A DNA stretch of 64,000 bases, from NCBI GenBank assembly GCA_976551045.1, contig CDPCPM010000103.1, positions 11,594,001-11,658,000 of the forward strand, written 5' to 3'. Positions 5,604 to 57,162 of the stretch are shown one piece after another (positions within the stretch are counted from its first letter, which is position 1; the number at the start of each line of letters is the position of its first letter). The stretch is from Glaucostegus cemiculus. Lineage: Eukaryota. A program made the position numbers and the translations under genes. The notes beneath the pieces were generated by a model. That model did not search any database. It was given only the letters and a program-made list of their open reading frames with translations, and had not been told where the DNA came from.

Positions 5604-8600
5604 ATAGAACATAGAACAGTACAGCGCAAAAACATGCCCTTTGGCCCACAATGTTGTTCCAGACTAGTTAAACTAGTAATTAAATGCTGAACTAAACTAA
5701 TCCCTTCTGTCTACACAATATCCATATCCCTCCATTCTCTGTACATTCATGTGCCTCCACTATTACCCCTGGTGGTCCATTCCAGGTACCCACCACTCTC
5801 TGTGGAAAAAACTTGCCCCGCACATCTCCTTTGAACTTTTCCCCTCTCACCTCAAATGCACATTCTCTAGTATTAGACATTTTGACCCTGGTTAAAAGAT
5901 ACTGGCTGCCTACTTTACCTATGCCCCTCATAATCTTATAAACTTCCATCAGGTCTCCCTCAGCCTCCACCACTTCAGAGAAAACAACCTAAGTTTGTCC
6001 AACCTCTCCTCATTCTACATGCCCTCTAATCCAGGCAGCATCCACGTAAACATCTTCTACATCCTTTTAAAGCCTTCACATCCTTCCTTTAATGGGGTGA
6101 CCAGAATTGAATGCAATACTCCAGATGCGGCCTGACCAGTTTTATAAAGCTGCAATGTAACTTCCCAACTCTTGAACTCAAAGCCTCGACTAAAAAAGGC
6201 AAGCATGCCATACACTTTTGTTACCACCCTATCAACCTGTGCAGCTGCTTTCAGGGAGCTATGGACTCGGCCCCAAGATCCCTCTGTACATCATCACTGT
6301 TAAGGGTCTTGCCATTAACAGTGTACTGTCCTTTTACATTTGAATTCCCAAAGTGCAACACCTCACATGTAGCTGGATTAAACTCCATCAGTCATTTCTT
6401 TGCCCATGTCTACAACTGATCTATATCCCGCTATATCCTTTGGCAATCTTCTATGCTATCCACAACACCACCAATCTTTGCATCGTCTGCAAACTTACTA
6501 ACTCACCCATCCACATTTTCATCCAGGTCATTTATATATGTCATAAACAGCAGAGATCCCAGTACAGATCCCTGCAGAACACCACTAGTCACAGATCTCC
6601 AGCCAGAATAAGTCCCATTGACCACTACCCCCTGTCTTCTATGGACAATCCAATTCTGAATCCAAATTGCCAAGTCACCATGGATCCCATGCATCTTAAT
6701 CTTCTGGATGAGCCTACCATGAGGGAACTTGTCAAACACCTTACTAAAATCCATGTAGACACCATCCACAGCTCTATCTTCATCAATTACCTTCGTCACC
6801 TCCTCAAAAAACTCTATCAAGTTAGTAAGACATGACTTACCCCACACAAAGCCATGCTGACTGACTGTCCCAAATTAGTCCAGGGTTTTCCAAATGCACA
6901 TAAATCCTGTCCTTAAGAATCCTCTCCAATAGCTTCTACTCACTGGTCTATAGTTTCCAGAATTATCCCTATTTGCCTTCTTGAATAACGGAATAACATT
7001 TAGCTACTCTCCAGTCCTCTGGGACCTCGCCTGTAGCTAGTGAGGGCACAAAGATCTTGGTCAAGGACCCAGCAATCTCATCTCTTGCTTCTCTCAATAA
7101 CCTGGGGTACATCCCATCAGGCTTGGAGACTTATCCATCTTAATGTTCTTTAAGAGACCCAAAACTACTTCTTTCTTTACCTCAAAATGCCCTAGCATAT
7201 TAGCATGCTCCACACTGATCTCAGTCTCCTCCACGTCCTTCTCCTTGGTAAATTGCAATGCAAAGAACTCCTTTAGGACCTCGCCCATATTCTCCATGCC
7301 AAGCACATGTTCCCTCCTTTAGCTGCGGGTGGTCCTAGCCTCTCTTCAGTTATCCTCTTGCTCTTGTTGTATAGATAGAAAGACTTGGGATTCTCTTTAA
7401 TTTTACTTGCCAAAAACTTTTCATGGTCCCTCCTGGCTCACCTAATTTCCTTTTTGAGTACTTTTCCTGTTTCTTTATAATCCCCAAGGGCTCCAATTGA
7501 TTTTACTTTCCTAACCTTTACATACGTTTCCTTTTTCTTCTTGACTAAGTTCATCACCTCTCTCAACATTTAAGGTTCCCTAACCTTGCCTTCTTACTGG
7601 TCCAGTTGGTCCATAAACACCTTCAACATGTCAGATGTGGAATTGCCCAAAAACAGCTGTTCCCAGTTAGCTCTACCTAGTTTCTGCCTAATATTCTTAT
7701 AATCTGTCTTGCTCCAATTTAATACTTTCCTGCAAGGTCCATACTTATCCTTATTTATTGCTATCTTCAAACTTCAGGAGTTGTGGTCATTGTTCTCCCA
7801 CTGAAAGGTCAGTCACCTGGTCCAGTATGGCCTCTCCTCTCATTGGACTATCTACATACTGATTTAAGAAACCCTCCTGGATACACCTAACAAATTCTGT
7901 CCTGTCTAAACCTCTTGCACTACAGAGGTCTCAGTCTATATTGAGGAAGTTGAAGTCACGCACAACATCAACCCTGTTGTTTTTACACCTTTCCCTGATC
8001 AGTTCCTCAATGTCCTGGTGGCTATTGTGAGGTCTGTAGTACAATCTCATCAGAGTGATTGCACCTTTCTTATATTTGAGTTCTACCCCTGAAGACTCAG
8101 TGGATGAGCCCTCCATTATGTCCCATCTGCATGTAGCAGTGATAGTGTCCCTGATTAATAGTGCAACTCCCCCCACCCCTTTTACCTCCATCCTCTTTTA
8201 CCACCATCGAGGACATTTTCAAGAGGCGGTGCCTCAAGAAGGCAGCATCTATCATTAAGGACCCTCACCATCCAGGACACATCCTCTTCTCATTAGTACC
8301 ATTAGGGAGGTGGTACAGGAGCCTGAAGACCCACACTCAACGATTCAGGAACAACTTCTTCCCCTCTGCCCTCGGATTTCCAAGCAGTCCATGAACCCCC
8401 GAACACTACCTCATTATTCCTTTTTTTTTGCACTGTTTATTTTGTAATTTATAAATTTTGTCTTTCCACTGTACTGCTGCTGCAAAACAGCAAATGTCAC
8501 CTCATATGTCAGTGATAATAAATCTGATTCTGATTCCTGCTCTATTTTTTCTAAAACATCGAAACCCTGAAACATTAAGCATCCAGTCCAGTCCCTCTCT

Positions 8601-13765: not shown

Positions 13766-14861
13766 ACTGGGGTTGAGGGTTGTGGCTGAAAATGGATTTG
13801 ACTGGTTGAACGGCCACCCTTTGTGACCTTCTGGATCTCTAACCCCAGCCATCCCTCCCCAAATTGCCCGGCCACCGATCCTTGCTTAGAAAGTGCTGAA
13901 TGTAAATTAAGGCCCCTCACCAGTATGCTTTAAGTCTCACATTGGCAATGTGGGTGAGAGTTAATGGTTGCTCTTCCCATCCCAATATGCATTGAAGGTG
14001 AAAGAATTCATTGCTTAATATGCCATTCTTTTGAACATGATGTTCATTTTCACTTGTGTAATTATTAAACAATAAACGCTAGTCCTTTGACAGTGTTTAC
14101 ATGTAATTTGAAGAACCCGTCTCAGTATTTCCTAAAATAGCACTGATTTTCCAGGAATCTGGAATGCATCGAATGCTAATGGTTATATGATTCTAAGCAC
14201 TTGTCTGTGCTGCATCAGTCAAAGGAACCACAAATACACCAGAAGGAAAAGTGCTATTTTGGGGAACGATGCAGAACTGCACTCTGTGAGCAGAACAAGG
14301 ATCATGGTTGTGTAGTTACCCCAAGGTTATTGACAATATTTCAAACTACATAGCAAAACAAATCCAAACCTGGCAAAAGTCTTTACAGGCTTTTTATACT
14401 CTCCTCATTTGTTTTCCACTTTTGTATCATCATCTAATTTGGCTACCATTCACACAGTTTCTTCATCCAAGTCATTAGAATCAGAATTCAGAATCAGAAT
14501 CAGTTTTATTGTCACAACCACATACATACAAAGTATGCAGAGGAGCGATATACCGTCCTCCTCATGGTCTCGTCCCATACAAAAAAATGACATAACAACC
14601 AACAGAGACACATACACACTTGGCAGAATACATAGTATAGATCATTACACCTTAAAAGCTAAGGGGATTGAACTTAAATTCAGGATCGATTTATCGATTT
14701 TCACTTACACGTATACATGTGCAAAAGACATCAAAGACAACAAAGGACACCTGGACAAAAACATCAAAACATTAACAGCCCCCCTGCCTCACCCCACACC
14801 GATGACCACCTCCAACCCCCCCAGTCCTACAACCTCAGGGCCCACAGACCATCAACAACCC

Positions 14862-14954
14862 CCGGCCCACAGTCCGACCACCTCCGGCCCACAGTCCGAC
14901 CACCTCCGGCCCACAGTCCGACCACCTCCGGCCCACAGTCCGACCACCTCCGGC
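14862..14954. repeat. 22-bp minisatellite, 4 perfect copies
   Basis: The unit ccggcccacagtccgaccacct starts at 14862, 14884, 14906 and 14928. Confidence 0.95.
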
Positions 14955-14968
14955 ACCTTCGCCTCTGA

Positions 14969-15276
14969 CTCCGCAGTCCGACGACCTCCGACCCGAATTC
15001 CGGCCTCGCATTCCGACGACCTCCGGCCCCGAACTCCGGCCTCGCAGTCCGACGACCTCCGACCCGAATTCCGGCCTCGCAGTCCGACCACCTCCGACCC
15101 GAATTCCAACTCCGCAGGCCGACCACCTCCGACCCGAATTCCGACTCCGCAGGCCGACCACCTCCGACCCGAATTCCGACTCCGCAGGCCGACCACCTCC
15201 GACCCGAATTCCAGCCTCGCAGTCCGACGACCTCCGACCCGAATTCCGACTCCGCAGGCCGACCACCTCCGGCCCG
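14969..15276. repeat. 35-bp GC-rich minisatellite, about 9 copies
   Basis: Unit ~ctccgcaggccgaccacctccgacccgaattccga. GAATTC occurs at 14995, 15066, 15101, 15136, 15171, 15206 and 15241, with the variant gaactc at 15031. Confidence 0.95.
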
Positions 15277-16381
15277 AGCAGCCCCCTCACCGCCCGCATC
15301 CCGATGCCACCACGAGGCTCCCGGGCCTTCAAGACGCTGCCGCCTCCGACGAGCTCCGACGAGCCGTCGGAGCCGACAGTGCCGACAACGACTCCATAAA
15401 ACGGCACACAAACAACAGAACAAAGAACACACAAGAAAAAAAGACTACTGAAAACACTAGAAGACTAACAAAAAAACCCAAGGACTACAGACCTGGGAGA
15501 GGCCGCTGCAACCAGGTGCGCCGCCATCTTAAAATTGTGAATGGCTGAGGCCCCAGCACTGATCCATGGCACTAACTAGCTACAGCTTCCCAACCAAAAA
15601 TGGCTATTTCATCCTGATTCCCTATCTTTTATTACTTAGCCACTCTTCTCACCCTGCTAACCTATTACACACAATGCCGTGAGTTCTCACCTTATGCAGT
15701 GATCTTTTATATGGCAGCTTACCGAATGCCTTTTGGAAATCCAAATACAACTCTTTCTTCCTTTTCATCTGCCTGCTCATTCTACCTTCAAAGAACTTTA
15801 ATAAATTTGCCAAACATGATTTCATAAAACCATGTTGATTATACTTCACCACATTCTGGTTTTCCATACTTCCTGCTGGGACTATCATAATAATGGATTC
15901 CAACACATTTACAATGTCACTTCAGACCAATGAGCCTAGCTTCCTTCATTCAACCTCCCTCTTTCATGAACAGTGTTACATTCGCAGCTTTCCAACACAC
16001 TAGGATCCTTCCAAAGTGTCTGAAATATCAGGAGATCACAACCACTGCATCCACTATCTTTTCTGTTAAGAGCTCTGGGTGCAGGCCATCAGATTCAGCA
16101 GACTTGTCAACTTATAGTCCTGTTAGTCTGCTTAGGAATTTTTCATGTATTGCTAGTGATTATTTTTAAGTTCAAGTTGCTCCCAGATTTCTTACTATTG
16201 TTCAAGTGCATCTACTGTCTACTACTCTGAAGATCGGTGCAATTTGTTTATGAATCTTATACAAAATAGAATTTTTTTAAAAACATGCATGAAAAGAAAG
16301 GAAGATTTTTTTCAAATACAAGCTTGAAAAGCCTTTCAAGTTTTTTTGCCTTACATTTCAAATTTCAAATTAGACAAAAAC

Positions 16382-24316: not shown

Positions 24317-25219
24317 TCATTTACAGCTCGACTGGGCAGTGTCCTCCGCGGTCAGTTTGAAGTCCAAAGGTTTAAGTAGATGGGATATGGGCAATTCGTC
24401 CAACCCCTCCGGGAATTTCTCAGGAGCTATGGCCGCGATTAAAGTCTGCATGGCCTTTACGAAGAGCGGCGGCGGGCTGCGGCCCGACAGCCACTGAAAG
24501 AGGTCCGGGGTCAGCAAACTCTGCCAGAGGCCGACGTTGCTTCTGAGTGCCGCCTTCATTTTGAACTTGAGTTCTGGCATGAAGAGCAGGAGGCTGTGCA
24601 GGCAGGCGTGCATCCTCGGCAGCTCCAGCCGGCTGTCGCACAGCTGCAGGAGTAGTGTGTCCAGCGGGGTGTTGCCCTCGCAGTCCGTGATGTAGGGGGA
24701 GGAACCGTGCGCCAGCAGCAGGGGCAAGCACTCGGCTCTCGCCAGCTCACAGGCCACATGCAGCGGCGTCTTGCCGCTCTCCACATGCACGCAGCCCCTG
24801 CGGTTGATGTAATCCGAGCGGTTGATGCCGGGACAGTCCCGCAGGCATTTCAGGAGGTGTCCCAGGGTGGCGACTCGGTTGTAGCGCACGGCCATGGCGA
24901 GGTGCGGCGCCGAGGAGCGGCAGCAGCAGAAGCTGTCGCTGGGCACAGCCAGCGCCGCCCGCGGGTGCTGCCTCAGCAGGTACTGGCCGTAGCGCTGGTG
25001 GTCGTGCACCAGGGCGTAGAGCAGGGCTTCGGACGGCGAGTAGGCGCTCATCCGGCCGCCCTCCTCCCAGTGAAACACCTCCATGGTCCTCATTTCCTCC
25101 AGGATCCAGACGGGCAGGAGGTCCCGCACCGCCTGGTAGAAGGCGAAGGATGACTTCTTGCAGCGCTTCTGGCAGCGGTAATCGCGGCCGTGGGTCGGGG
25201 TGCCCAGGTCCCAGGGCAT
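24317..25219 (-). CDS. ANKRD9: Ankyrin repeat domain-containing protein 9 (300 aa), uninterrupted CDS
   Basis: MPWD..KSSFAFYQAVRDLLPVW..YSPSEALLYALVHDH..AVRYNR..TPLHVACELARAECL..FQWLSG..LDELP..PLD matches vertebrate ANKRD9. The ATG at 25219 is in Kozak context gtcaccATG; TGA is at 24317-24319. Confidence 0.95.
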   Translation of the reverse strand: MPWDLGTPTHGRDYRCQKRCKKSSFAFYQAVRDLLPVWILEEMRTMEVFHWEEGGRMSAYSPSEALLYALVHDHQRYGQYLLRQHPRAALAVPSDSFCCCRSSAPHLAMAVRYNRVATLGHLLKCLRDCPGINRSDYINRRGCVHVESGKTPLHVACELARAECLPLLLAHGSSPYITDCEGNTPLDTLLLQLCDSRLELPRMHACLHSLLLFMPELKFKMKAALRSNVGLWQSLLTPDLFQWLSGRSPPPLFVKAMQTLIAAIAPEKFPEGLDELPISHLLKPLDFKLTAEDTAQSSCK

Positions 25220-26120
25220 GGTGACAGGGCTCCGGCACCCGGCCTCTGACCCGTCTCCAAGGCGACGTGAAGCTTCTCTCCCCCAAACTCGCACTTGTCG
25301 GACTCCCTGGCAACAGGTTGGCGACTCCAGTCGTTGCTGCTGCCGGTTCCTGGGAAGCCGCTGTCCCGGGACTCGGTGCTGCGGCGGCAGCCGGGCTCTG
25401 GGCTCCTGTCAACCCCTTTATAGGAACGGTCCCCCGGGCGGGGGCTCCAGCATTGGCCGTCCTCGACACACCGCCCTGATCCTGACTAATGACAGAGCTG
25501 CAGCGGGAACACCCTCTCACTGTCTGTAAACTGATACTGAAACCACATCCTACGAGGAGTCAAACAAACCCCGCAGGCGGATTGCGTGAGCAGTATTCCA
25601 TTACCACCCTTGTTTTCACCTTATCCCTCCCGATATACACCCTTATTTTACCTTTATATTTAATTTAAAAAAAATTACCTTAAACTTAGGACTGTCGACG
25701 CGTTGAAGCGGAAACTCTGAAACGCACCGCTCCACGAGTTATTACTTGTTTACGACGGGAAGAGGCCCCTTTAAAAAGAAATTATGGGATGCGTCGACAT
25801 CACTAAAACCCAGGAACTGGGATTCACCGACAATTCTCTCCTCCCTCCGCGGAACCCGCTGACTGCAGCCAAGTGTCTCACTGATCTTTGGCGGGGAAAT
25901 GGCGGAGAGACATAAAGTTAGAATAGGGGCGAATTGTACTTATACAGAGAATTTAATCACTCCCAGACTTCGCTCAGTTTTTCAAATCTCGTCTTTGTCT
26001 TAAGGGAGGTAATCTCGCCCGCAGTTAGTGCAGTGTCGTCCCGGAGCAGTGTCCAAAGCGCGGGAGGAACTCAGCGGGTCAGACAGCATCTGTGGCGGGA
26101 AATGGACAGGCGATGGTTCG
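24340..26120. promoter_or_regulatory. CpG island covering ANKRD9 and its upstream region
   Basis: Abrupt rise in GC and CpG density against the AT-rich, CpG-depleted background. Confidence 0.8.
25415..25456 (-). promoter_or_regulatory. ANKRD9 core promoter: CCAAT box, GC box, TATA box overlapping a CArG box
   Basis: Minus CCAAT at 25452-25456, GGGCGGGG at ~25436-25443, minus TATAAA at 25417-25422 inside CCTTTATAGG (25415-25424). This is ~200 nt upstream of the ATG. Confidence 0.65.
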
Positions 26121-30220: not shown

Positions 30221-30332
30221 TTGGTTCAATATGTAGACAAGCATACTAGCAGTGACAGACATAACTAAAAATGAGGTTGGTTCAATATGTAGACAAGCAT
30301 ACTAGCAGTGACAGACATAACTAAAAATGAGG
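30221..30332. repeat. Perfect 56-bp tandem duplication
   Basis: ttggttcaatatgtagacaagcatactagcagtgacagacataactaaaaatgagg occurs at 30221 and 30277. Confidence 0.95.
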
Positions 30333-31080
30333 TGTTAAACTGTACCAGATTCTACACATGCTGAATAGTAGCAACAACACAATGTAACCAAAGCTAACTG
30401 ACCTCACAACCAACAGATAAAATCTCTTTCAGCCAGAATGCTGTCAGCCTTCTCACAAGATCCACACCTTCACAGACACAAACTTGCAGTCAACTTATTT
30501 CACTCCCAGACATCAGGGGATAAAACAGACCATGGACATGAATACCTCCCAGAGGTAACTGAGGTGCTCCAGAACCAGCTTCATATCCACCAAATCTGCT
30601 CCAATACAGCGACAACACTGGTACCATCCAATGGAGCAGATGCAAGAAATCCAAAACAAAAACAGAATGATGGAAGTACATGGCAGATCAAGTAGCCTTG
30701 GTGGGGAGGGAAACAGTGTGCTTTAAGCTGCAGAGAACAGAGGCAAGAAGGCACATGGGAATGTCACCACTTGAAAGTTCCTTTCCAATTCACACACAAT
30801 CTTAACTTGGAAATATATTGCTTTTCTTCACTGTTTGTTAAAGTTCTGGAACTCTCCAAGTAACAGCATCATGAGATGATATTCACCACTCATATTGCAA
30901 TAATTCAAGGTGATTCTCATCATTCACGTCCACTAACTAAAATTAATGAAAAATGAGGTACAATTGTTTTTAGGTCATCTTTAATTCTTGAACTGTCAAC
31001 TTCAGAATTTGTAGCTTAAACTAAAGGAGGAACTTTAACAAATAAAACAAAAACAAATGTAAAAAGGATCCTTTAGTTTT

Positions 31081-34163: not shown

Positions 34164-34478
34164 TCAGAATCAGTTTTATTGCCACAACCATATACATATA
34201 TAGTATGCATAGGAGCGAGATACCGCCCTCCTCAGGTGCTCGTCCCATTAAATAACAACCAACAGAGACACACATACACACTTAACAGAATAAACATTAA
34301 AAAACATTAAACATTAAAAACTACGGAAGTTAAAATTAAATTAATACGCAGATTAAAAATGGCTGGTAAATAAATAAATAGTTATTAAAGTGAACGGGCT
34401 GGTGTCGGGCATTTAAAGTGCTGGTGCATTTCTGTGCACCTAGCATCTCTTAGTGTTAACAAAGGAAGATGGAGGGAT
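34164..34478 (-). mobile_element. 5'-truncated Rex1/Babar 3' end in the last TECPR2 intron
   Basis: Near-identical reverse complement of ~56838-57162; TCAGAA is present at both junctions. Confidence 0.9.
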
Positions 34479-56195: not shown

Positions 56196-57162
56196 AATGA
56201 CGATGAGTCGGACTACAGAGAGGAGGTGAAACAACTAGCCGTGTGGTGCCATGACAACAACCTCTCCTTGAATGTGGATAAAACCAAGGAGATGATAGTG
56301 GATTTTAGGAGGGGTCACCGTGTGCACGTCCCGCTGACCATCAACGGGTCTGCTGTGGAACAAGTACGCAGCACCAAGTTCCTGGGGGTGCACATCACCG
56401 ACGACCTGACCTGGTCCACTAACATTACGGCCCTCACGAAGAAAGCTCAGAAACGCCTCTACTTCCTGCGGAGACTGAGGAAAGCGTACCCCCATCCCTC
56501 CGTCATGAAAACCTTCTATAGGGGGACCATTGAGAGCATCCTAACTCAATGTATCACTGTTTGGTTTGGAAGCTGCTCAGCTGCTGGGCGGAAGTCCCTC
56601 AAGAAGATAGTTAGGGCTGCGGAGTGGATCATAGGTGTCTCACTTCCATCCCTCGCAGACATATACAAAGACCGTTGTGTGAGGAAGACCAAAAGCATAA
56701 TGGCCGACTCTTCTCACCCCTCCCACTACCTCTTCACAATTTTGCCATCAGGGAGGAGGCTTAAATGTATCAGGGCAAGAACGACCAGGCTGAACAATAG
56801 CTTCTTTCCGCAAGCCATCAGAACTGCAAACTCTCTCATCCCTCCATCTTCCTTTGTTAACACTAAGAGATGCTAGGTGCACAGAAATGCACCAGCACTT
56901 TAAATGCCCGACACCAGCCCGTTCACTTTAATAACTATTTATTTATTTACCGGCCATTTTTAATTTAATCTGCGTACTAATTTAATTTTAACTTCCGTAG
57001 CTTTTAATGTTTAATGTTTTGTAATGTTTATTCTGTCAAGTGTGTATGTGTGTCTCTGTTGGTTGTTATGTTATTTTATGGGACGAGCACCTGAGGAGGA
57101 CGGTATCTCGCTCCTATGCATACTATGTACGTATATGGTTGTGACAATAAAAACTGATTCTG
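56196..57162 (+). mobile_element. Young 5'-truncated Rex1/Babar LINE with intact ORF2 C-terminus and 7-bp target site duplication
   Basis: Open frame NDDESDYREEV..WCHDNNLSLNVDKTKEMIVDFRR..KFLGVHITDDLTWS..KKAQKRLYFLRRL..SFFPQAIR to the stop at 56876. Tail is aataaaaactgattctg; AAAATCA occurs at 56189-56195 and 57163-57169. Confidence 0.92.

What the first reader, a model, noticed from the sequence alone, without database searches (positions are those of the whole stretch)
14477..15530. Candidate undescribed bipartite non-autonomous retroposon: YY1-type head, double minisatellite, Rex1 tail
Seen: a 1054-bp insert splits an old CR1. On the minus strand it starts exactly at AAGATGGCGG, followed by a U-rich tract, 35-bp and 22-bp CpG-rich arrays and unique sequence. 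It ends with ~140 bp matching the 3' UTR of the young Rex1 at 56196-57162, including the GAGGAG..CTCCTC stem-loop, AATAAA and a (GATTCT)n tail. It has no RT remnant and no tRNA A/B boxes, and its CpGs are largely undecayed. Established: AAGATGGCG is a YY1 motif that marks LINE internal pol II promoters, and non-autonomous elements borrow a LINE 3' stem-loop for mobilisation. Inference: this is a recently active pol II-driven element, loosely SVA-like in its VNTR architecture, mobilised by Rex1/Babar and delivering a mini CpG island.
Basis: partly seen in the sequence, partly recalled or inferred. Interest (0 to 1): 0.7.

Follow-up and report, generated by a model that had tools for sequence, protein, structure and literature searches.

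The report
Rex1 parasite that swapped its tail
This 1-kb insert is one of thousands of copies of a gene-less jumping element built from the two ends of a fish-type Rex1 retrotransposon around a CpG-rich tandem repeat; it still carries the broken remains of an older tail in front of a newer one, so the family likely switched to a more active helper element along the way.

Summary
Real and multi-copy. The genome holds 1,752 exact heads, 1,340 old-tail motifs and 2,094 old-tail/new-tail junctions. None of 100 heads examined leads into an ORF. Most copies are 5'-truncated with intact 3' ends (19 of 30), as expected of LINE-type retrotransposition. The head is a Rex1 5' UTR, so this is an ORF-less bipartite LINE derivative, a kind listed in 2018 only for RTE, Ingi, Vingi and R2 (PMC5786205). 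A captured 170-nt tail follows, 98.8% identical to Rex1-B in the earliest copies and 91.6% in the youngest. Of 100 full-length copies, 42 start with an inserted T7-T59 run. CpGs decay with age, so the 'CpG island' is transient. Untested: pol II/YY1 function, expression, Repbase/Dfam status. The parent LINE of the head was not found. The scan noted similar elements before, twice in this genome and twice in other genomes.

The parts
15533..15790 (-). Upstream half of the host CR1-type RT fragment (frame reads ...GSVLGPQPFTI); the far boundary is approximate
   Evidence: translation and tblastn to CR1 paralogues
15531..15534 (-). T4 run before the head; short instance of the family's 5' oligo(T) leader (two T's may belong to the CR1 Ile codon)
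15522..15530 (-). AAGATGGCG, YY1-type motif; same 8-nt core as the L1 YY1 site quoted in PMC2912911
15278..15530 (-). Head derived from a Rex1 5' UTR (motif, U-rich tract about 15480-15396, GC-rich stretch)
   Evidence: 74% over 113 nt to a full-length Rex1-B; alignment with Rex1-B and Rex1-C 5' UTRs
14967..15277 (-). VNTR, 35-bp variant (22-bp core plus 13 nt), about 9 units
14858..14954 (-). VNTR, 22-bp variant, 4.4 units
14774..14857 (-). G-rich linker shared by all subfamilies; looks like degenerate VNTR units or the 5' UTR end; no significant match to Rex1 in this copy
   Evidence: z 1.4 or less
14680..14773 (-). Relic of the older Rex1-type tail A: U-rich part kept, hairpin deleted (junction 14722-14711), AATAAA and GATTCT repeat decayed (14704-14680)
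14504..14680 (-). Captured tail B: last about 170 nt of the Rex1-B 3' UTR, with predicted hairpin 14563-14540 and AATAAA 14510-14505
14477..14503 (-). (GATTCT)n terminal repeat
14417..14476 (-). Downstream half of the host CR1-type RT fragment (NDLDEE...)
56196..57162 (+). 5'-truncated Rex1-B copy; same family as the tail donor, but a different subfamily (83% to this tail)

Best explanation
[quoted passage not shown] History: an ancestral Rex1 lost its ORF, leaving 5' UTR plus tail A (homology shown; the parent itself not found). A unit inside the UTR region grew into a VNTR (length variation shown; origin of the unit inferred). One master then acquired the last 170 nt of a Rex1-B element directly behind its own GATTCT repeat, either by insertion of a 5'-truncated Rex1-B or by template switch (structure shown; route inferred). 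Its old hairpin was deleted and its old AATAAA lost (shown), which would let transcripts read through to the new tail (inferred). Serial subfamilies followed, and this copy belongs to the youngest (shown). Transcription would start a few bases upstream of the motif, so each master passes on a short leader: (A)TCC in the oldest copies, a T-run later, an A-run in Rex1-B (leaders shown; mechanism inferred).
For: Copy numbers with reversed-pattern controls of 0: 1,752 heads, 1,340 tail-A motifs, 2,094 relic/tail-B junctions, 943 youngest-subfamily tails. Of the first 100 listed heads, 45 end in tail A, 55 in relic plus tail B, and none contains an ORF; the 9 LINE-protein hits within 1.7 kb all lie beyond the element's tail. 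19 of 30 youngest copies are 5'-truncated and 30 of 30 keep the 3' end; 7 of 30 tail-A copies have a full head. TSD-like repeats of 6 bp or more occur in 11 of 91 copies, against a mean of 1.9 (maximum 4) in re-paired flanks. Paralogous empty sites were found for 27 of 128 copies. All 30 loci fetched with the Rex1-B head carry the RT ORF downstream, one only in part. The oldest VNTR-poor copies align with Rex1-C 5' UTRs beyond nt 130 at z 5.4-7.5, 0 of 300 shuffles. Tail B identity to the best of 47 Rex1-B tails falls from 98.8% in the earliest-branching copy to 91.6% in the youngest. AATAAA is absent from 50 of 50 parsed relics (5 of 55 not parsed), and the old stem from 30 of 30. Tail-B copies form one side of a 100/100 branch (86 rows, 15 of 100 copies dropped as not parsable). 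VNTR CpG decay is 16%, 5.4% and 1.0% in tail-A, early/middle B and youngest copies. A T-run of 7 or more precedes 42 of 100 heads, against 0.04% of window positions, and is absent from empty sites.
Against: No autonomous element with this exact head or with tail A was found (0 of 100 heads, 0 of 30 tail-A loci). Element heads are about 0.56 substitutions per site or more from both Rex1-B and Rex1-C, so the direct parent is missing. With six Rex1 heads as outgroup, the free tree put the root among early tail-B copies, although a tree holding tail B together scored 5.3 log units higher, p-AU 0.71; the outgroup does not settle the direction. For this copy, nt 130-253 match Rex1-B (z 5.6) but not Rex1-C (z 1.3), and the linker and the 60-nt segment of old copies match neither. 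The tail hairpin is no more stable than shuffles in tail A, Rex1-B or Rex1-C, and the joint fold failed. 53 of 100 heads have fewer than 4 T's. No database names the partner 'Rex1'; that label rests on motif and architecture.
Confidence: 0.83

Rival explanations
1. A simple internal-deletion derivative of one Rex1 family, head and tail from the same parent, with no partner switch; the 'relic' is just part of a longer 3' UTR of an unsampled Rex1.
For: Head and tail both have homologues in Rex1-B; only 100 of 1,752 heads were examined; outgroup rooting was ambiguous.
Against: 1,340 copies end at an intact tail A. In Rex1-B the sequence upstream of the 170-nt piece is ordinary 3' UTR, not the relic. 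The head is far from Rex1-B while the early tail B is 98.8% identical to it, so the two ends have different ages.
Confidence: 0.07
2. An SVA-like composite whose VNTR is functional (promoter strength or RNA structure) and selected for, rather than a passenger.
For: The VNTR is present in nearly all copies, and its median length rises from 287 to 360 to 402 nt from old to young groups; CpG o/e is 1.5 in the 35-mer array.
Against: Copies with almost no VNTR were mobilised (L185, L209), and length ranges from 77 to 824 nt. No Alu-like, CT-rich or poly(A) parts are present. Length drift along one master lineage explains the trend equally well.
Confidence: 0.25
3. The 5' T-run is added by the reverse transcriptase or repair machinery at each insertion (non-templated A's on the cDNA end), not inherited through the RNA.
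For: Lengths vary from 0 to 59; empty sites usually have 1-3 T's at the junction, which could seed slippage; over half of the copies lack it.
Against: The leader follows lineage: (A)TCC in the oldest clade (C at -1 in 29 of 34 tail-A copies with fewer than 4 T's), a mode of T8-T10 later, and A7-A10 in autonomous Rex1-B. None of the 19 5'-truncated youngest copies shows such a run in the printed junctions.
Confidence: 0.2
4. Spread at the DNA level (segmental duplication or carriage inside another element).
For: A few pairs share flanks: L019/L020 and L255/L257.
Against: Flanks are otherwise unrelated, 3' ends are fixed while 5' ends are ragged, and TSDs and empty sites exist.
Confidence: 0.02

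Closest known systems
Bipartite ORF-absent non-autonomous LINEs: RIME/Ingi, NARTc/L1Tc, Bov-A/BovB, RTESINE, Vingi-1_EE derivatives (PMC5786205: passages and section 23; PMC7245038: passages)
   Same: 5' terminus plus 3' terminus of a LINE, no ORF, no pol III head, many independent copies; pol II transcription presumed.
   Different: Derived from a Rex1-type LINE, whereas the 2018 paper lists only RTE, Ingi, Vingi and R2; an expanded VNTR in the middle; head and present tail come from different Rex1 families; 5' oligo(T) leader.
SINE tail exchange, e.g. ERE4B, IdioSINE2 (PMC5786205: passages)
   Same: A LINE-derived 3' end superseded by another LINE's tail, leaving a remnant in the body.
   Different: Occurs here in an element without a pol III head; the new tail is appended behind the whole old tail; before, intermediate and after states and the donor subfamily are all present in one genome.
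Rex1-tailed tRNA SINEs, e.g. SINE2-5_NV with Rex1-24_NV (PMC3747384: table passage)
   Same: Non-autonomous use of a Rex1 3' end is known.
   Different: Those have tRNA heads; this one has none.
SVA/LAVA of apes (PMC5174737: search listing only; other features recalled)
   Same: Non-coding, about 1 kb or more, central GC/CpG-rich VNTR of variable length.
   Different: No CT-rich, Alu-like or SINE-R parts; ends in a GATTCT repeat instead of poly(A); both ends are LINE UTRs; no sequence relationship is implied.
Human L1 YY1-directed start with 5' extranucleotides (PMC2912911: passage)
   Same: AAGATGGC core near the 5' end, and extra bases upstream of it in full-length copies, attributed there to upstream initiation.
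   Different: Here the extra bases are a homopolymer that differs by lineage (T in the parasite, A in Rex1-B).

Membership tests
Bipartite ORF-less non-autonomous LINE | Begins with the 5' terminus of a LINE | tested here: met
Bipartite ORF-less non-autonomous LINE | Ends with the 3' terminus of a LINE | tested here: met
Bipartite ORF-less non-autonomous LINE | No LINE ORF | tested here: met
   0 of 100 copies with an internal tblastn hit
Bipartite ORF-less non-autonomous LINE | Amplified as a family by retrotransposition, not a one-off deletion | tested here: met
Bipartite ORF-less non-autonomous LINE | Both ends from the same parent LINE | tested here: inconclusive
   Plausible for the tail-A ancestors (both ends closest to Rex1-C by score), but the parent was not found; for this copy the working tail is from Rex1-B and much younger than the head
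Bipartite ORF-less non-autonomous LINE | Transcribed by RNA polymerase II | not testable with these tools
   inferred from the YY1-type motif and AATAAA
SINE (SINEBase definition, PMC3531059 passages) | Head at least 60% identical to tRNA, 5S or 7SL RNA over 60 nt | tested here: not met
   no Rfam hit at E<=1, no tRNA
SINE (SINEBase definition, PMC3531059 passages) | At least 100 interspersed copies | tested here: met
SVA/LAVA | Central GC-rich VNTR | tested here: met
SVA/LAVA | CT-rich hexamer head, Alu-like part, poly(A) end (partly recalled) | tested here: not met
   sequence; no 7SL-type hit
Rex1/Babar clade (partner LINE) | Single ORF with endonuclease and RT, no ORF1 (PMC13343379, PMC6274825 passages) | tested here: met
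   full-length copies of about 3.5 kb with one frame starting about 300 nt in; RVT_1 and PF09004 hit; PF03372 was not hit in this copy but is listed for many close homologues
Rex1/Babar clade (partner LINE) | RT motif targeted by the Rex1 primer RTX1-F1 (encodes FSSAFNT; PMC3728117 passage) | tested here: met
Rex1/Babar clade (partner LINE) | 3' UTR followed by an oligonucleotide repeat of variable length | tested here: met
Rex1/Babar clade (partner LINE) | RT phylogeny with named Rex1 references | not testable with these tools
   no named reference among the 120 listed homologues, which are unnamed or mostly teleost RT proteins

The most novel reading that the evidence does not exclude
A pol II parasite of Rex1 that outlived its parent LINE by capturing the tail of a successor Rex1 family, silencing its old poly(A) signal and hairpin, and that rebuilds its own 5' end from a self-renewing oligo(U) leader. 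This would be an independently evolved SVA analogue in cartilaginous fish whose partner switch can be read step by step in one genome.
Probability: 0.35. Interest if true: 0.7.

Novelty: new variant of a known kind. Interest (0 to 1): 0.48.

Why it matters
It adds a Rex1-type clade to the short list of LINEs reported to spawn ORF-less bipartite parasites, a bias that PMC5786205 leaves open as sampling or mechanism. No self-cleaving ribozyme was detected at its head, so it bears on the idea that such ribozymes are the cause. Tail exchange in SINEs is mostly inferred from short remnants. Here the state before (1,340 copies), the intermediates, the state after (2,094 copies) and the donor subfamily coexist, which makes LINE-tail recognition and partner switching directly testable. 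Lineage-specific homopolymer leaders give a handle on how internal pol II promoters regenerate their 5' ends. The young copies are also ready-made insertion and VNTR markers.

Tried and rejected
The T-run seen in 30 of 30 loci was biased, because the query included upstream T's; it was redone with a pattern lacking them (47 of 100 with T4 or more). Search for the direct autonomous parent (tail-A pattern, head pattern, walks along Rex1-B and Rex1-C, tblastn over 1.5 Mb of fetched loci): not found. Origin of the 60-nt segment of old copies: no match above shuffles. Outgroup rooting: unreliable. Tail hairpin: joint fold uninformative. DNA-level search for the empty CR1 site found nothing; the protein-level search worked. 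An antisense frame is open across this whole copy (351 codons). It was rejected as compositional: there are only 15 antisense stop triplets, all outside the arrays except one, and VNTR units are not multiples of three. Sequencing runs: no RNA holder listed. The look-up of earlier findings by sequence gave nothing. Literature searches listed no paper describing a bipartite or VNTR-bearing Rex1 derivative; Repbase and Dfam could not be searched, no supplements were read, and the family may be catalogued there. PMC9004415 passages added nothing.

Full report
Observation. The insert is real at 14477-15530 on the minus strand. It has the only AAGATGGCG of the window, GC 0.57 and CpG o/e 1.12 against 0.26 for the window. 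It contains a 35-bp array (14967-15277) and a 22-bp array (14858-14954), and ends in AATAAA plus GATTCT repeats. Its last 190 nt match the Rex1-type copy at 56196-57162 at 83%. It splits a CR1-type RT frame, where paralogues show two more residues between the flanks, so about 4-6 nt of target are gone. Rfam and ARAGORN find nothing. The two arrays are one repeat: the 35-mer is the 22-mer core plus 13 nt.

A family, not a one-off. In the 2.85-Gb own genome the head has 1,858 first-look candidates, the best 40 at 99% or more, and 30 of 30 fetched loci carry head, linker and tail in order. Exact patterns, each with a reversed control of 0, give 1,752 heads, 1,340 copies of an older tail motif, 2,094 junctions of a relic with the newer tail and 943 copies of the youngest tail variant. 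I examined the first 100 listed of the 1,752 heads. 45 end in tail A, 55 in relic plus tail B (23 of them the youngest type, B2), and none contains an ORF; nine have a LINE-protein hit within 1.7 kb, always beyond the element's tail. VNTR length runs from 77 to 824 nt. Among 30 B2 tails, 11 are full length, 19 are 5'-truncated at scattered points, and all keep the 3' end. Short TSDs are a minority but above chance: 6 bp or more in 11 of 91 copies against a mean of 1.9 in re-paired flanks (9 of 100 left out for too little flank). Paralogous empty sites for 27 of 128 copies show small duplications or deletions. This is the pattern expected of target-primed reverse transcription (established knowledge, recalled).

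The head is a Rex1 5' UTR. Following the window's LINE upstream gave full-length copies of about 3.5 kb with a single ORF; 1 of 8 has an uninterrupted frame of 1,035 codons. They begin with a homologous head (74% over 113 nt), and all 30 loci fetched with that head carry the ORF downstream, one only in part. An older family, here Rex1-C, has the same kind of head. The oldest, nearly VNTR-free parasite copies align with Rex1-C 5' UTRs beyond nt 130 at z 5.4-7.5 (0 of 300 shuffles) and with Rex1-B at z 3.2-3.6. Against this, the window copy's nt 130-253 match Rex1-B (z 5.6) but not Rex1-C (z 1.3), and the linker matches neither. Parasite heads form their own clade about 0.56 substitutions per site or more from both families, so the direct parent was not found. 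The label Rex1 rests on three things: the single-ORF layout (PMC13343379 passages; PMC6274825 passages), the FSSAFNT motif encoded by the Rex1 primer RTX1-F1 (PMC3728117 passage; present in the ORF), and close homologues that, where named, are teleost proteins. No source names it Rex1, and Pfam gave RVT_1 and PF09004 only.

Tail capture. Older copies end with a short tail A that has its own hairpin-like motif, AATAAA and GATTCT repeat and scores closer to Rex1-C (80-83) than to Rex1-B (62). In the window copy the same tail survives as a relic at 14773-14680. The hairpin is deleted (old stem in 0 of 30) and AATAAA is gone in 50 of 50 parsed relics, including the earliest-branching ones (5 of 55 not parsed). 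Directly behind the decayed GATTCTGA begins the last 170 nt of the Rex1-B 3' UTR. Its identity to the best of 47 Rex1-B tails is 98.8% in the earliest-branching copy, 96-98% in the next, and 91.6% in B2 (ungapped columns). A tree of head plus linker puts all 47 tail-B rows on one side of a 100/100 branch in a ladder that ends in B2, which includes the window copy (85 of 100 copies plus the window, 15 not parsable). The direction A to A+B follows from three observations: the relic itself, CpG decay in the VNTR of 16%, 5.4% and 1.0% in A, B and B2, and mean pairwise identity of about 94.7%, 96.2% and 99.2%. Outgroup rooting did not confirm it: the free head-only tree rooted among early B copies, but a tree holding B together scored 5.3 log units higher, p-AU 0.71. 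Insertion of one Rex1-type element at or in another's tail is seen in L216 and L004, which makes DNA-level capture plausible; a template switch would give the same structure.

5' leader. My first sample was biased toward T's. In the unbiased 100, 47 have T4 or more and 42 have T7 or more (background 0.04%), with a mode of 8-10 and up to 59 in B2. Empty sites have at most 1-3 T's there, so the run is inserted DNA. The oldest clade instead has (A)TCC, and Rex1-B has an A-run, mostly 7-10. For human L1, extra 5' bases in copies with a complete YY1 site are attributed to upstream initiation (PMC2912911 passage). I infer the same here: starts a few bases upstream of AAGATGG copy the master's leader, and a homopolymer leader would renew itself and slip. 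Non-templated addition is the rival, and long runs may also include assembly error.

CpG sites mutate 5.2 and 3.1 times faster than other sites in two older groups and 1.6 times faster in the young ones, and 3 of 4 substitutions in this copy are CpG transitions. The CpG richness therefore marks youth, not a protected island. A hairpin is predicted at the same place in all five tail types, but it beats shuffles only in B2 (z -2.3) and weakly in B (-1.6). An antisense frame open across this copy is explained by composition.

Comparison. It works like the bipartite ORF-absent non-autonomous LINEs, which PMC5786205 (section 23 read whole; passages) reports only for RTE, Ingi, Vingi and R2; that paper also describes tail exchange in SINEs. 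PMC7245038 (passages) adds RTE examples, and Rex1-tailed tRNA SINEs exist (PMC3747384 table passage). It fails the SINEBase head criterion (PMC3531059 passages) and shares only its layout with SVA/LAVA. Nine literature searches listed no description of such a Rex1 derivative. Repbase and Dfam were not available and no supplements were read. After I had formed my reading, the scan's notes showed the same kind of element twice in this genome and twice in other genomes; the short notes shown do not mention a tail relic or a T-leader.

Verdict. A new variant of a known kind: an ORF-less Rex1-type derivative with a VNTR, a documented tail capture and a lineage-specific homopolymer leader. Confidence in the overall explanation 0.83; interest 0.48.

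Noticed in passing
window 14334-15548 (+): Stop-free frame of 404 codons antisense to the element; long antisense ORFs occur in most B2 copies but follow from the A-poor sense strand.
   Followed up: yes
L216 (G000:C10:25129000-25131300) and L004: A 5'-truncated copy sits right behind the GATTCT tail of another copy; another copy sits inside a Rex1-B tail with a 6-bp overlap. Rex1-type insertions may favour such tails.
   Followed up: partly
L111-L140, L359-L387: Full-length Rex1-B copies start with an A-run, mostly A7-A10, before TGGCGG, mirroring the parasite's T-run.
   Followed up: partly
L333-L352 (contigs C110, C469, C591): About 14 near-identical Rex1-C fragments with the same upstream flank cluster on three contigs, which points to a large tandem or segmental amplification.
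   Followed up: no
L014, L019/L020, L023, L253: Several copies lie in tandem satellite-like arrays with dozens of empty units in the same locus.
   Followed up: no
window 34164-34342 (-) and 8194-8536 (+): Another Rex1-type 3' tail (78% to this one) and an older, distant LINE fragment that also ends in AATAAA plus GATTCT.
   Followed up: no
window 24317-25559 (-): Overlapping stop-free frames of 363 and 270 codons; not identified.
   Followed up: no
window 30221-30333: Perfect 56-bp tandem duplication.
   Followed up: no
L091 ORF: The partner's best database relatives are 60-67% identical, teleost proteins where named; PMC13343379 reports many Rex1 transfers between rays and teleosts. Horizontal transfer was not tested here.
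   Followed up: no
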